Origin: Gemmatimonadota bacterium
GTDB taxonomy: Bacteria > Gemmatimonadota > Gemmatimonadetes > JACCXV01 > JAHWKZ01
DNA: 64,000 nt
Reading direction: 5' to 3'
Assembly: GCA_035687745.1 (NCBI GenBank)
Contig: DASRVA010000023.1
Span: 12,060-76,059, forward strand
Of the stretch, positions 2,322 to 40,315 are shown in pieces. The position numbers were made by a program, and so were the translations under genes. The notes under the pieces were generated by a model. That model was not told the DNA's origin. It ran no database searches and saw only the letters and a program-made list of their open reading frames with translations. The stretch's first letter is position 1. Each line of letters starts with the position of its first letter.

Positions 2322-3725
2322 TCACGAACACGGCCGGCGGGGAACGTGCGGACGCCCCCAGAGAAACAGGACGACCATCCCTCCGATGAAGGCGAGGACC
2401 GAGGCCGCCAGAATTGCGAGCTTGGCGACCGCCATGAGCTCACCCTGCCCGAACGCCAGCCCCGCGATGAAGAGCGACATCGTGAACCCAATGCCGGCCA
2501 GCCAGGCCACCCCGTAGAGCTGCGCCCACCGGGCGTCCGACGGGAGGGCGGCCAGGCCGAGCCTGGTCGCCCCCCAGGCGAAGAACGTGATTCCGATCGA
2601 CTTGCCGAGGAGGAGGCCGGCGACGATTCCGAGTGCGATCGGGTGCCCGAGCATCGCCGACGGTGAGCCTTGGATGGTGACCCCGGCATTGGCCAGTGCG
2701 AAGAGCGGGAGGACCCCGAAGACGACCCACGGGTGTAGCGCGTCCTCGAGCCGCTGGAGGGGCGTCTGGACGTGCTCGACGGCCTCTTCGAGCGCGCCCA
2801 GGGCATTCTGCTGGCCGCCGCTCACGAGACGCGCCGAGCGGAACTCGGAGACCTCCTCGAAGTCCTCGAGGATCGAGGCGCTCCGCCGCAGGAACTCCCG
2901 GCTGTCGAGCCGCCGCCGGGCGGGGATCGTTATCGCCACCAGAACACCGGCGATGGTCGCGTGGACTCCGGAGTGCAGGAAGGCCACCCACACCCCGAGG
3001 CCGGCCAGGGCGTAGGGGAGCGGGCTCCGGATCCGGGACGCGTTGAAGAGCGCACAGGCGACGAGCCCCGCCGCCCCGGCGCCCAGCCAGGACCACGACA
3101 CACCGTGGGCGTAGAAGACCGCGATCACCAGGATCGCGCCAAGATCGTCGACGATCGCGAGCGCGGTGAGAAACACCTTGAGCGACGCCGGCACCCGGCT
3201 TCCCAGCACGGAGACGGCCGCCACCGCGAATGCGATGTCGGTCGCCATCGGCACCCCCCATCCCGCTGCGCCCGGTCCGCCGGCGTTGACGACCGCGTAG
3301 ATCGCGGCCGGCGCGAGCATGCCTCCCAGCGCCCCGGCGATCGGCAGCATGGCCTTTCTCGGCTCGGCGAGCTCGCCGGCCACGACCTCGCGCTTGATCT
3401 CGAGCCCCACGACGAAGAAGAACAGCGCCATGAGGCCGTCGTTGATCCAGTGGAGCAGGGACTCGTCCAGGCGGAGACGAGCCACCTCGATCGAGACGTG
3501 GGTCGCCCACAGCTCCTCGTAGGCGGCCCGGAAGGGGGAGTTGGCCCACGCCAGGGCGATGACGGCGCACGCCAGGAGCACCGCGCCCCCGGCGGCCTCG
3601 AGACGCAGGAACTCCCGGAAGGCGCCGCGCAGTCGGATCGCCGGAGCCGCTACGGCGCCTCCTCCTCGATCTCCGCCTCCCAGCCGATCTCGACCGCCCC
3701 ACGCAGCGACGCCGCGGTCGGGCAC
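2322..3725 (-). CDS. nhaA: Na+/H+ antiporter NhaA
   Basis: Carries the NhaA signature FFFVVGLEIKRE and the overall NhaA TM layout (AIVDDLGAILVIAVFY, HATIAGV). The only canonical start, ATG at 3725, overlaps the 3' end of the OsmC-like gene by 76 nt. No ATG/GTG/TTG lies between the OsmC stop and the first conserved NhaA helix. Confidence 0.8.
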   Translation of the reverse strand: MPDRGVAAWGGRDRLGGGDRGGGAVAAPAIRLRGAFREFLRLEAAGGAVLLACAVIALAWANSPFRAAYEELWATHVSIEVARLRLDESLLHWINDGLMALFFFVVGLEIKREVVAGELAEPRKAMLPIAGALGGMLAPAAIYAVVNAGGPGAAGWGVPMATDIAFAVAAVSVLGSRVPASLKVFLTALAIVDDLGAILVIAVFYAHGVSWSWLGAGAAGLVACALFNASRIRSPLPYALAGLGVWVAFLHSGVHATIAGVLVAITIPARRRLDSREFLRRSASILEDFEEVSEFRSARLVSGGQQNALGALEEAVEHVQTPLQRLEDALHPWVVFGVLPLFALANAGVTIQGSPSAMLGHPIALGIVAGLLLGKSIGITFFAWGATRLGLAALPSDARWAQLYGVAWLAGIGFTMSLFIAGLAFGQGELMAVAKLAILAASVLAFIGGMVVLFLWGRPHVPRRPCS

Positions 3726-4114
3726 TTCGACTGATGCCCCGCCAGCGCCCGGTCGACCTTCTCCCGCTCGCCCGGCGGCACCCTCAGCCGGTACCGGATG
3801 TGGATCCGGGTCAGGACGGGAAGCCGGTCCACGATCTCGTTGATCCCCTCGGCCTCGGCCTGGATCGCGTCAGGCTCGAGCCGGACCCCGCGCACCTCCA
3901 GTGCGCCGTTGAGCGTCCCCAGCATTCAGCCCGCGGCGGAGGCGACGATGTAGTCGACCGGCAGCGGCAGATCGGGCGCGTCGATCCGATAGTGCTCCCT
4001 AACCGGTCCGTGCACGCCCATGTCGAACTCCGCTCCGGTGGGGAGCGTCGCCCGGCGATGGACGCCCGCGACCTTTCTCACGGATACGCGACTGACGTAA
4101 AAAGGCTCGCTCAC
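3650..4114 (-). CDS. OsmC/Ohr-family peroxiredoxin-like protein with an in-frame TGA at the peroxidatic Cys position (candidate selenoprotein)
   Basis: Starts at a GTG preceded by AGGAGG plus 6 nt. The translation aligns to E. coli OsmC: IVASAAG-[TGA]-MLGTLNGAL corresponds to IGAAHAA-C-FSMALSLML, and QSKCPTAASLRGAVEI corresponds to KAGCPVSQVLKAEITL. Track ORFs 3926..4114 and 3650..3925 share one frame and are separated only by the TGA at 3926..3928. Confidence 0.65.
3883..3918 (-). other. Candidate bacterial SECIS hairpin downstream of the OsmC in-frame UGA
   Basis: On the minus strand, 7 to 43 nt after the UGA: lower stem GGAC/GUCC, internal loop, upper stem GCGCAC/GUGCGC, apical loop UGGAG. 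Confidence 0.4.
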
Positions 4115-4189
4115 CGTTCACCTCCTGGAATCGAGGGAATACGTAGATGCTGGTCACGACAGCGCGGCGGCGGTTGGGGCTTCACTACG

Positions 4190-40239: not shown

Positions 40240-40315
40240 TCCCCGGTAGCTCAGTTGGTAGAGCAGGTGGCTGTTAACCACCGTGTCGCTGGTTCGAGTC
40301 CGGCCCGGGGAGCCA
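40240..40315 (+). tRNA. tRNA-Asn (anticodon GTT), CCA encoded
   Basis: Cloverleaf folded by hand: acceptor TCCCCGG/CCGGGGA, anticodon stem GGTGG/CCACC with loop CTGTTAA, T-arm GCTGG-TTCGAGT-CCGGC, 3' GCCA. Followed by TTCTTCTTTTTC. Confidence 0.9.

What the first reader, a model, noticed from the sequence alone, without database searches (positions are those of the whole stretch)
3650..4114. OsmC-like peroxidase with in-frame TGA exactly at the peroxidatic cysteine: candidate selenocysteine OsmC
Two adjacent track ORFs (3926..4114 and 3650..3925, minus strand) are in one frame, separated only by TGA at 3926-3928, and together make a 154-aa OsmC/Ohr-family protein. Alignment to E. coli OsmC puts the TGA precisely on Cys59: AAHAA-C-FSMAL versus ASAAG-TGA-MLGTL. 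The C-terminal KCP cysteine is also conserved. The gene has a strong SD (AGGAGG-6 nt-GTG). Within 7-43 nt after the UGA there is a two-part hairpin (GCGCAC-UGGAG-GUGCGC on a GGAC/GUCC lower stem) with a G-rich apical loop like bacterial SECIS elements. TGA is clearly an ordinary stop elsewhere in the window, so this is not a reassigned genetic code. OsmC-like has been reported as a rare selenoprotein family in metagenomes.
Basis: partly seen in the sequence, partly recalled or inferred. Interest (0 to 1): 0.85.

Follow-up and report, generated by a model that had tools for sequence, protein, structure and literature searches.

The report
Selenocysteine OsmC-type peroxidase gene, mis-annotated as truncated
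This is one intact gene for a small antioxidant enzyme of the OsmC/Ohr family whose catalytic cysteine is very probably replaced by selenocysteine (encoded by UGA plus an RNA hairpin); the same arrangement occurs in more than 160 related bacteria, mostly Gemmatimonadota, but public annotation cuts the gene in two.

Summary
Window 4114..3650 (minus strand) is one 154-codon OsmC-superfamily gene with a single in-frame TGA (3928..3926) at the catalytic-cysteine column.

- **Conservation of the TGA:** it is present in all 163 homologous copies I could score (151 unique sequences), mostly Gemmatimonadota MAGs and soil metagenomes. Both halves are equally conserved (68% and 68%).
- **Cys homologs:** a few homologs carry Cys at that column.
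- **Hairpin:** 19 nt after the UGA lies a 6–7 bp stem with loop U-GGA-G. It pairs in 151/151 sequences, has compensatory changes at three pairs, has invariant loop G30/G31, and meets all four published bacterial SECIS criteria.
- **Control:** Cys-form genes encode the same peptide but have lost the loop G (5 of 6 distinct) and the stem (4 of 6 distinct).
- **Alternatives excluded:** the codon after TGA is CTC, CTA or CTT in 32/151, so re-initiation fails. TGA ends 21/30 confident ORFs in the window, so the code is standard.

OsmC-like selenoproteins have been known since 2005. This clade fails the curated NF041052 model (21.6 vs 95 bits) and has a different motif. It is therefore a new, widespread and systematically truncated member of a known kind.

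Not shown: selA, selB, selC and selD in the genome.

The parts
3650..4114 (-). Complete coding sequence of a 154-residue OsmC/Ohr-superfamily protein (GTG start at 4114..4112; Sec63 encoded by TGA; TAG stop at 3652..3650).
   Evidence: Single frame. Pfam OsmC 46.8 bits. Both halves are conserved in 79 genomes at a mean 68% and 68% identity. A Cys-form homolog is predicted to have the OsmC/Ohr fold.
4121..4126 (-). Shine-Dalgarno sequence AGGAGG, 6 nt upstream of the GTG start.
   Evidence: Read directly from the sequence.
3926..3928 (-). In-frame TGA: predicted selenocysteine codon (residue 63) at the peroxidatic-cysteine column.
   Evidence: TGA in all 163 homologous copies scored. Cys in full-length database homologs. 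Aligned to the catalytic Cys of 1ukk OsmC.
3890..3906 (-). SECIS core. The stem is columns 23-28 paired with 34-39, plus a U29-G33 closing pair. The apical loop is G30 G31 A32 (3899..3897). The stem starts 19 nt after the UGA and the loop 26 nt after it.
   Evidence: Pairing in 151/151 unique sequences at all six stem pairs. Compensatory states GC/GU/CG, CG/UA/GU and AU/GC/GU. G30 and G31 invariant. 0 of 500 shuffles reach the observed value; slid controls pair 15-71%. RNAalifold recovers the same stem. MFE of the 17-mer is -9.7 kcal/mol.
3880..3923 (-).
   Evidence: Predicted in the single sequence. Not conserved in homologs. Probably not part of the functional element.
3722..3724 (-). TGC codon of Cys131 (K-C-P-T-A motif), the predicted resolving cysteine, 68 residues after Sec63.
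   Evidence: Invariant C-P-T-A in alignment A1. Aligned to the second catalytic Cys of 1ukk. A pair of catalytic cysteines about 60 residues apart is the hallmark of the Ohr/OsmC family (PMC5384416).

Best explanation
Window 4114..3650 (minus strand) encodes a single 154-residue thiol/selenol peroxidase of the OsmC/Ohr superfamily, in which the peroxidatic cysteine is replaced by selenocysteine.

Proposed mechanism of decoding: when the ribosome reaches UGA63, the downstream stem-loop (a 6-7 bp G+C-rich stem with apical loop U-GGA-G, 26 nt from the UGA) recruits SelB-GTP-Sec-tRNA(Sec). Sec is inserted instead of translation terminating.

Proposed catalysis: Sec63, at the N-terminus of the long helix, attacks a hydroperoxide. 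The resulting selenenic acid is resolved by Cys131 (the KCPTA motif) to a selenenylsulfide, which a thiol reductant then reduces.

Shown here:
- One conserved reading frame spanning the TGA.
- Sec/Cys pairing with homologs at that column.
- A conserved, covarying hairpin that fits the SECIS consensus.
- OsmC/Ohr family and fold.

Inferred, not shown:
- That SelB and tRNA-Sec exist in this organism.
- That selenium is actually incorporated.
- That the enzyme is a peroxidase, and what reduces it.
For: (1) The TGA is at the catalytic column in all 163 copies scored: 83 from genomes, the window and three independent assemblies of the same gene; 79 from metagenomes; and 1 more. These give 151 unique 60-mers.

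(2) The N-terminal and C-terminal halves are equally conserved, at a mean 68% and 68% identity over 79 genomes. No copy has another lesion.

(3) Full-length database homologs carry Cys at that column.

(4) Hairpin: 100% of 539 cells are paired. 27 cells change on both sides. 0 of 500 shuffles reach the observed value. Slid controls pair only 15-71%. Pooled over 151 sequences, pairs 23-39, 26-36 and 27-35 each show two or three pair types, and G30 and G31 are invariant.

(5) Synonymous sites are frozen only inside the hairpin. Gly column 24 is C in 78/79, whereas Gly column 12 uses all four bases. Leu column 30 is G in 79/79, whereas Leu columns 9 and 18 vary.

(6) Control: Cys-form genes encode the same G-A-L-E-V-R peptide. 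Column 30 is C in 5 of 6 distinct genes and the stem is broken in 4 of 6. Fisher p = 8e-9 for the loop G.

(7) All four bSECIS consensus criteria quoted in PMC13188914 are met:
- apical loop of 3 nt (5 nt if U29-G33 is left unpaired);
- stem of 6-7 bp;
- loop pattern N1-G-G-N-N2;
- 26 nt spacing and MFE -9.7 kcal/mol.

(8) OsmC family by Pfam, by PDB sequence search, and by fold: all of the top 50 Foldseek hits are OsmC, Ohr or YhfA-type structures.

(9) TGA is the normal stop in this window, ending 21 of 30 confident ORFs.
Against: No selA, selB or selD homolog was found in the 64-kb window or the roughly 1.27 Mb of related loci then held. No tRNA-Sec was found in the window or the roughly 1.6 Mb held later. 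This is uninformative, because it samples well under 1% of each genome, but it means the machinery is unverified.

I found no paper documenting the Sec trait in Gemmatimonadota.

No Rfam family matches the hairpin, even at E <= 10.

In the single sequence, the hairpin's energy is not significantly better than shuffles.

The catalytic Arg and Glu of characterized OsmC/Ohr enzymes are not clearly conserved. Asp54 sits at the Glu column, and Arg43 is variable among homologs. Peroxidase activity is therefore an inference from family membership.
Confidence: 0.9

Rival explanations
1. UGA63 is read through, but another amino acid is inserted. One route is Cys delivered by a tRNA-Sec-like tRNA or by SelB carrying a mis-acylated tRNA. 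Another is Trp or Gly from near-cognate suppression stimulated by the hairpin.
For: The sequence data show only that the UGA must be decoded and that the hairpin is under selection. They do not identify the amino acid. Natural recoding of Sec UGA sites to Cys has been reported (my own knowledge: Mukai et al. 2016; not checked here). The Sec machinery was not found in the DNA held.
Against: The hairpin matches the SelB-type bSECIS consensus exactly, including the invariant GG in the apical loop. The site is a redox-active catalytic Cys, the classic place for Sec (PMC1088965). If Cys were the product, a TGC codon would be simpler. Lineages that do switch to TGC lose the hairpin, as expected when dedicated machinery is being abandoned.
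Confidence: 0.06
2. There are two separate genes. Translation stops at TGA, giving a 62-aa peptide, and re-initiates at the adjacent ATG, giving the 91-aa 'OsmC family protein' that public databases annotate.
For: In the window the TGA is followed directly by ATG (TGAATG). Gene callers annotate the 91-aa product (HET6340811.1) and a 62-aa hypothetical protein.
Against: The codon after TGA is a Leu codon in 53 of 151 unique sequences, and 32 of those are CTC, CTA or CTT, which cannot initiate. The split would delete the catalytic residue and cut the OsmC fold within its central helix (H55-75 in the model). The boundary falls exactly on the Cys column of full-length homologs.
Confidence: 0.01
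3. It is a pseudogene, or a sequencing or assembly error (TGC or TGT miscalled as TGA).
For: A single in-frame stop in a MAG-derived contig is a common artefact when only one sequence is seen.
Against: The identical gene occurs in three independent assemblies (L081, L082, L083). TGA is present in all 163 copies scored, from about 80 different genomes and about 80 metagenome contigs. Both halves are equally conserved. None has a frameshift or a second stop.
Confidence: 0.005
4. The organism uses a reassigned genetic code in which TGA is a sense codon (Trp or Gly).
For: One JGI contig (L173, P0003) was translated with TGA as Trp by its annotator.
Against: TGA terminates 21 of 30 confident long ORFs in this window. 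No other convincing TGA-interrupted gene is present in the window. In L173 the Trp translation also runs through the gene's real stop, which points to an annotation artefact.
Confidence: 0.005

Closest known systems
OsmC-like selenoprotein family (Sargasso Sea, Zhang/Fomenko/Gladyshev 2005, PMC1088965; listed in reviews PMC9312934 and PMC13188914; presumably the family modelled by NCBIfam NF041052 'OsmC-related (seleno)protein')
   Same: It belongs to the OsmC superfamily (PF02566). Sec is encoded by an in-frame UGA in the N-terminal catalytic region, with a SECIS hairpin immediately downstream that has G in its apical loop. Cys-containing homologs exist.
   Different: The published family is COG1765/YhfA-type with motif UxxT. 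Here the motif is U-[ML]-[LT]-G-T, with G invariant at +3 and T at +4. The window protein scores 21.6 bits against NF041052 (cutoff 95). Five TGA-form relatives drawn from the near and distant clades, plus a Cys form, score 14-25 bits. The published family was rare (3 sequences in the Sargasso data). This clade was found in 356 genome stretches and at least 524 metagenome stretches, and the TGA form predominates.
OsmC (E. coli OsmC, T. thermophilus 1ukk) and Ohr organic hydroperoxide reductases
   Same: The fold is the same. There are two redox residues: the first at the start of the long helix, the second in a C-terminal C-P motif 68 residues later. Both align to the catalytic cysteines (Cys59 and Cys125 in E. 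coli; PMC5113044, PMC5384416).
   Different: The first redox residue is Sec rather than Cys. The protein falls well below the OsmC subfamily cutoff (TIGR03562: 20.1 vs 85.8 bits). Identity to solved structures is 13-20%. The catalytic Glu column holds Asp, and the OsmC-type Arg is not invariant. A conserved V-H-R-R motif lies in the first beta-hairpin, which is where Ohr has its Arg.
Bacterial SECIS elements (bSECIS consensus model; E. coli fdhF type)
   Same: It lies inside the coding region just 3' of the UGA. It has a small apical loop whose first unpaired bases are GG, a 6-7 bp upper stem, and 26 nt between UGA and loop. All of this is within the consensus.
   Different: Only the short upper stem is conserved. 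There is no conserved lower stem or bulged U. It matches no Rfam family. The sequence is unusually invariant (G-G/C-C-G-C-R-C-U-G-G-N-N-G-Y-G-C-G-S) across clades that are only 36-43% identical in protein.

Membership tests
OsmC/Ohr superfamily (Pfam PF02566) | Score above the Pfam gathering threshold | tested here: met
   46.8 bits against a 27.5-bit cutoff, residues 50-145, with TGA read as Cys.
OsmC/Ohr superfamily (Pfam PF02566) | Two conserved redox residues about 60 aa apart (Cp and Cr) | tested here: met
   Sec63 (Cys in homologs) and Cys131, 68 residues apart, align to both catalytic Cys of 1ukk. The hallmark is quoted from PMC5384416.
OsmC/Ohr superfamily (Pfam PF02566) | OsmC/Ohr alpha/beta fold | tested here: met
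   AlphaFold model of the Cys-form homolog P0007 (56% identical; pLDDT 78.8). All of the top 50 Foldseek PDB hits are OsmC, Ohr or YhfA-type, each with probability 1.00. This is a proxy, not the window protein itself.
OsmC/Ohr superfamily (Pfam PF02566) | Catalytic Arg and Glu of the active OsmC and Ohr subfamilies | tested here: inconclusive
   In the 1ukk alignment, Asp54 sits at the Glu column and Arg43 at the Arg column. Arg43 is R, K or G among homologs. An invariant H-R-R lies in the first beta-hairpin.
OsmC/Ohr superfamily (Pfam PF02566) | Thiol-dependent hydroperoxide reductase activity | not testable with these tools
   Needs an enzyme assay.
OsmC subfamily proper (NCBIfam TIGR03562) | Score above the curated cutoff | tested here: not met
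   20.1 bits against an 85.8-bit cutoff.
Curated OsmC-related (seleno)protein (NCBIfam NF041052) | Score above the curated cutoff | tested here: not met
   Window protein 21.6 bits against 95. Five relatives from the near and distant TGA clades, plus the Cys form P0007, score 14.3-24.9 bits.
Published OsmC-like selenoprotein (COG1765, UxxT) | Redox motif UxxT | tested here: not met
   The motif here is U-M-L-G-T, or U-L-T-G-T in the distant clade. Position +3 is invariably G.
Bacterial selenoprotein (SelB/SECIS-dependent UGA decoding) | In-frame UGA conserved among orthologs, with both flanks conserved as protein | tested here: met
   163 of 163 copies scored. Flanks are 68% and 68% identical.
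Bacterial selenoprotein (SelB/SECIS-dependent UGA decoding) | Cys-containing homologs aligned to the UGA | tested here: met
   16 Cys-form proteins, with TGC confirmed in 7 loci.
Bacterial selenoprotein (SelB/SECIS-dependent UGA decoding) | bSECIS consensus: loop of 3-9 nt, stem of 4-16 bp, G in the first two loop positions, 16-37 nt from the UGA, MFE <= -7.5 kcal/mol | tested here: met
   Loop GGA (or UGGAG), stem 6-7 bp, 26 nt spacing, -9.7 kcal/mol. Criteria are from PMC13188914.
Bacterial selenoprotein (SelB/SECIS-dependent UGA decoding) | Hairpin under selection as RNA (covariation, and loss in Cys forms) | tested here: met
   for covariation. for the Cys-form control. for the synonymous-site contrast.
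Bacterial selenoprotein (SelB/SECIS-dependent UGA decoding) | selA, selB, selD and tRNA-Sec present in the same genome | not testable with these tools
   None found in the window or in the fragments of relatives held (about 1.27 Mb for the sel genes, about 1.6 Mb for tRNA-Sec). The SelB-like hits were IF2.
Bacterial selenoprotein (SelB/SECIS-dependent UGA decoding) | Selenium in the protein | not testable with these tools
   Needs 75Se labelling or mass spectrometry.

The most novel reading that the evidence does not exclude
This may be a second Sec-using lineage within the OsmC fold, distinct from the 2005 'OsmC-like' (UxxT, COG1765, NF041052) selenoprotein and so far undescribed. Sec would be the ancestral and overwhelmingly dominant state, Cys forms would have arisen several times by reversion, and a nearly invariant 17-nt SECIS would have been kept across clades only about 40% identical in protein. 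It could be the signature selenoprotein of the largely aerobic soil and marine phylum Gemmatimonadota, which is not discussed in the selenoproteome literature I could search. It would give an unusually clean natural system of matched Sec and Cys orthologs for asking why Sec is retained.
Probability: 0.5. Interest if true: 0.55.

Novelty: new member of a known kind. Interest (0 to 1): 0.45.

Why it matters
**Annotation.** Hundreds of public entries for this gene are wrong. NCBI and JGI list a 91-aa 'OsmC family protein' plus a 62-aa hypothetical protein, or in one case a Trp read-through. The curated NCBIfam selenoprotein model does not catch it. A dedicated model plus the 17-nt SECIS signature would fix this.

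**Biology.** The gene implies that many Gemmatimonadota maintain the whole Sec-decoding apparatus. It adds a well-populated Sec/Cys ortholog set in a peroxidase fold other than Prx or GPx, which is useful for testing what catalytic advantage Sec gives.

**Method.** It is a good example of why a single hairpin's energy is not evidence for a SECIS (z = -1.6). The synonymous-site contrast and the Cys-form control are what carry the case.

Tried and rejected
- **Rfam.** Nothing matched at the gathering threshold over the whole window. Nothing matched at E <= 10 on 3840-3960. No curated RNA family covers this hairpin.
- **Single-sequence folding significance.** Not significant: z = -0.53 for 76 nt and -1.61 for 51 nt.
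- **Search for the Sec machinery.** ARAGORN found no tRNA-Sec in the window or in all held loci, where only 17 tRNAs were found in total. tblastn of E. coli SelA, SelB and SelD (from L084 and L085) against the window plus 1.27 Mb of loci gave only SelB-like hits. These proved to be IF2, in a nusA-infB-rbfA-truB operon.
- **Literature on the Sec trait in Gemmatimonadota.** Nothing specific was found.
- **Other TGA-interrupted genes in the window.** A GC3-based scan gave 10 candidates. Only the OsmC gene translates to a plausible protein on both sides.
- **Conserved gene neighbourhood.** NhaA lies directly downstream in only 8 of 74 loci, so there is no conserved operon for the TGA forms.
- **The 'Trp-form' homolog P0003.** Rejected: its DNA has TGA.
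Not conserved.
- **Membership of NF041052 or TIGR03562.** Tested and not met.
Full report
**1. The observation**

On the minus strand, 4114..3650 is one reading frame. It has a GTG start at 4114..4112, preceded by AGGAGG (4126..4121) with a 6-nt spacer. After 62 sense codons comes TGA at 3928..3926, then 91 more codons, then TAG.

With TGA read as Cys, the 154-residue product matches Pfam OsmC (PF02566) at 46.8 bits against a gathering score of 27.5. Its best solved relative by sequence is Thermus thermophilus OsmC, 1ukk (E = 8e-7). In that alignment the TGA column falls on the first catalytic cysteine, and Cys131 of the K-C-P-T-A motif (3724..3722) falls on the second. These two cysteines (Cys59 and Cys125 in E. 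coli OsmC) form the active site (PMC5113044). A pair of peroxidatic and resolving cysteines about 60 residues apart is the hallmark of the Ohr/OsmC family (PMC5384416).

In the single sequence, however, it is not better than shuffled controls: z = -0.53 for 76 nt and -1.61 for 51 nt.

**2. Not an error, a pseudogene or two genes**

- The exact 91-aa C-terminal product is encoded on three independent assemblies (two ENA, one Logan).
- A scan of one genome per species found 356 related stretches. All of the best 80, almost all Gemmatimonadota or Longimicrobiales MAGs, have TGA at this codon. In each, an in-frame N-terminal half is conserved upstream: FYVSR..V.KV.GVHRRA.L..G..FDMGVHG.I.EHY...LPLPVDY.VA..G.
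- A metagenome scan seeded with the Cys-form profile gave 80 loci. The 79 that could be scored all have TGA. They include a distant clade only 36-43% identical, with the motif TLDYVVAAAAG-U-LTGT[LF]GGALEARGI.
- In total, 163 copies (151 unique 60-mers) have TGA.
- The N-terminal and C-terminal halves are equally conserved relative to the window, at a mean 68% each over 79 genomes.
- The codon after TGA is ATG in 98 sequences. It is a Leu codon in 53, and 32 of those are CTC, CTA or CTT, which cannot initiate. Termination followed by re-initiation is therefore excluded.
- TGA ends 21 of 30 confident long ORFs in the window, so the genetic code is standard.

**3. Sec/Cys pair**

The full-length database homologs (150-160 aa, 53-61% identical) carry Cys at exactly this column, in G-C-M-L-G-T-L. 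TGC was confirmed in the DNA of seven loci.

One apparent Trp form (P0003) is TGA in its DNA. It was simply translated under another code.

**4. The hairpin is a selected RNA element**

Positions are numbered from the U of UGA as column 1.

- Columns 23-28 pair with columns 34-39. U29 pairs with G/A33. The apical loop is G30-G31-A32. RNAalifold independently predicts exactly this stem and nothing else.
- On 77 genome sequences, 539 of 539 cells are paired and 27 cells change on both sides. No shuffle out of 500 reaches the observed pairing or covariation. Sliding the 3' partner drops pairing to 15-71%.
- Pooled over 151 unique sequences, all six stem pairs form in 151/151:
  - pair 23-39: GC 133, GU 14, CG 4;
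  - pair 26-36: CG 146, UA 4, GU 1;
  - pair 27-35: AU 67, GC 75, GU 9;
  - G30 and G31 invariant.
- Several of these changes are amino-acid swaps that preserve pairing, such as Ala-GCA…Val-GUG changing to Val-GUG…Ala-GCA.
- Synonymous sites are frozen only inside the element. The Gly third position at column 24 is C in 78/79, while the Gly codon at column 12 uses all four bases. The Leu third position at column 30 is G in 79/79, while the Leu codons at columns 9 and 18 vary freely.
- Decisive control: Cys-form genes encode the same G-A-L-E-V-R peptide. Column 30 is C in 5 of 6 distinct genes and the stem is broken in 4 of 6. Fisher p = 8e-9 for the loop G.
- The element meets every constraint of the published bacterial SECIS model: a 3-9 nt loop, a 4-16 bp stem, G in the first two loop positions (N1-G-[G|U]-N-N2), 16-37 nt from the UGA, and MFE <= -7.5 kcal/mol (PMC13188914). 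Here the loop is U-GGA-G, the stem 6-7 bp, the spacing 26 nt, and the MFE -9.7 kcal/mol.

**5. Most likely mechanism**

This is SelB/SECIS-dependent insertion of selenocysteine at codon 63 of an OsmC/Ohr-fold peroxidase. Sec63 would act as the peroxidatic residue and Cys131 as the resolving residue.

The fold assignment rests on an AlphaFold model of a Cys-form homolog (pLDDT 78.8). Its top 50 PDB matches are all OsmC, Ohr or YhfA-type structures.

What remains inferred:
- The existence of selA, selB, selC and selD in this organism. None was found in the window or in the fragments of relatives held (about 1.27 Mb searched for sel genes, about 1.6 Mb for tRNA-Sec). SelB-like hits were IF2.
- Actual selenium incorporation.
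- Peroxidase activity. The catalytic Glu column holds Asp, and the OsmC-type Arg is not invariant.

The main surviving rival is read-through with another amino acid, such as Cys. I put that at about 6%.

**6. Comparison with what is known**

OsmC-like proteins are an established, rare prokaryotic selenoprotein family. The Sargasso Sea study reported 3 sequences, COG1765, with motif UxxT (PMC1088965). The family is still listed in the 2022 and 2026 reviews. NCBIfam has a model, NF041052 'OsmC-related (seleno)protein'.

The window protein scores only 21.6 bits against that model's 95-bit cutoff. Five TGA-form relatives drawn from the near and distant clades, plus one Cys form, score 14-25 bits. 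The motif here is U-x-x-G-T rather than UxxT. The protein is equally far from OsmC proper (TIGR03562: 20.1 against 85.8 bits).

So it works like the known OsmC-like selenoprotein, but it is not a member of the curated family. It is a separate and much more populous clade. Public annotation misses it: NCBI names only the 91-aa fragment 'OsmC family protein' (HET6340811.1), and JGI calls the 62-aa N-terminal piece hypothetical.

**7. Evolutionary note (inference)**

In a neighbour-joining tree rooted on the distant TGA clade, the 16 Cys forms fall into four separate pure-Cys clades nested among TGA forms. Two Cys-form genes still keep an intact stem (L166, L169). This suggests Sec is ancestral and Cys derived.

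The main Cys clade has a conserved position next to ctaA-ctaB-cox genes. TGA forms have no conserved neighbourhood.

**8. Verdict**

The finding is real and the Sec interpretation is well supported (confidence about 0.9). It is a new member of a known kind, not a new kind. Interest is moderate. It corrects a systematic annotation error, implies Sec decoding across Gemmatimonadota, and provides a large natural Sec/Cys ortholog set. The biology it reveals follows the established rules for bacterial selenoproteins.

Noticed in passing
L173:89-613 (JGI contig Ga0568858_0346657; protein P0003): The database protein shows Trp at the Sec column, but the DNA has TGA. The contig was translated with TGA as a sense codon and also reads through the gene's real TGA stop, adding a spurious C-terminal tail.
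   Followed up: yes
L166:1-6462, L167:1-6462, L168, L170, L171: The main Cys-form clade of this OsmC family always lies divergently next to a ctaA(COX15)-ctaB(UbiA)-cytochrome c-coxB-coxA-coxC cluster, with a GHL15 glycosyl hydrolase and a squalene/phytoene synthase on the other side. The TGA forms do not share this context.
   Followed up: partly
L115-L165 (soil metagenome contigs): A distant clade (36-43% identical, motif TLDYVVAAAAG-U-LTGT[LF]GGALEARGI) carries the same TGA and an almost identical 17-nt SECIS stem-loop. Its taxonomic origin was not determined.
   Followed up: partly
window 2322-3581 (minus strand): An NhaA-type Na+/H+ antiporter gene (Pfam Na_H_antiport_1 in the identical locus L081) starts 69 nt after the OsmC stop. 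The adjacency is found in only 8 of 74 related loci, so it is probably not a functional operon partner.
   Followed up: yes
L081:3625-5077 (same organism as the window; about 5-6 kb upstream of the OsmC gene, same strand): A MarR-family regulator is followed by a thioredoxin-reductase-like flavoprotein (Pyr_redox_2, 332 aa). This is a possible redox regulator and reductase pair near the peroxidase gene. Any link is untested.
   Followed up: no
L062 (VXNP01000066.1, binned 'Gammaproteobacteria') and L071 (VXWG01000098.1, 'Ca. Palauibacter irciniicola'): The two sponge-associated MAG contigs carry the same OsmC sequence, with identical protein context and an identical 60-nt SECIS region. The 'Gammaproteobacteria' bin is probably a mis-binned Gemmatimonadota contig.
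   Followed up: no
L077:11262-17801 (also L074, L065, L075, L027): In Longimicrobiales loci a nusA-infB-rbfA-truB operon lies about 1-4 kb downstream of the OsmC gene. Its IF2 produced false 'SelB' tblastn hits.
   Followed up: yes
window 40240-40315 (plus strand): The only tRNA gene in the window is tRNA-Asn (GTT).
   Followed up: no
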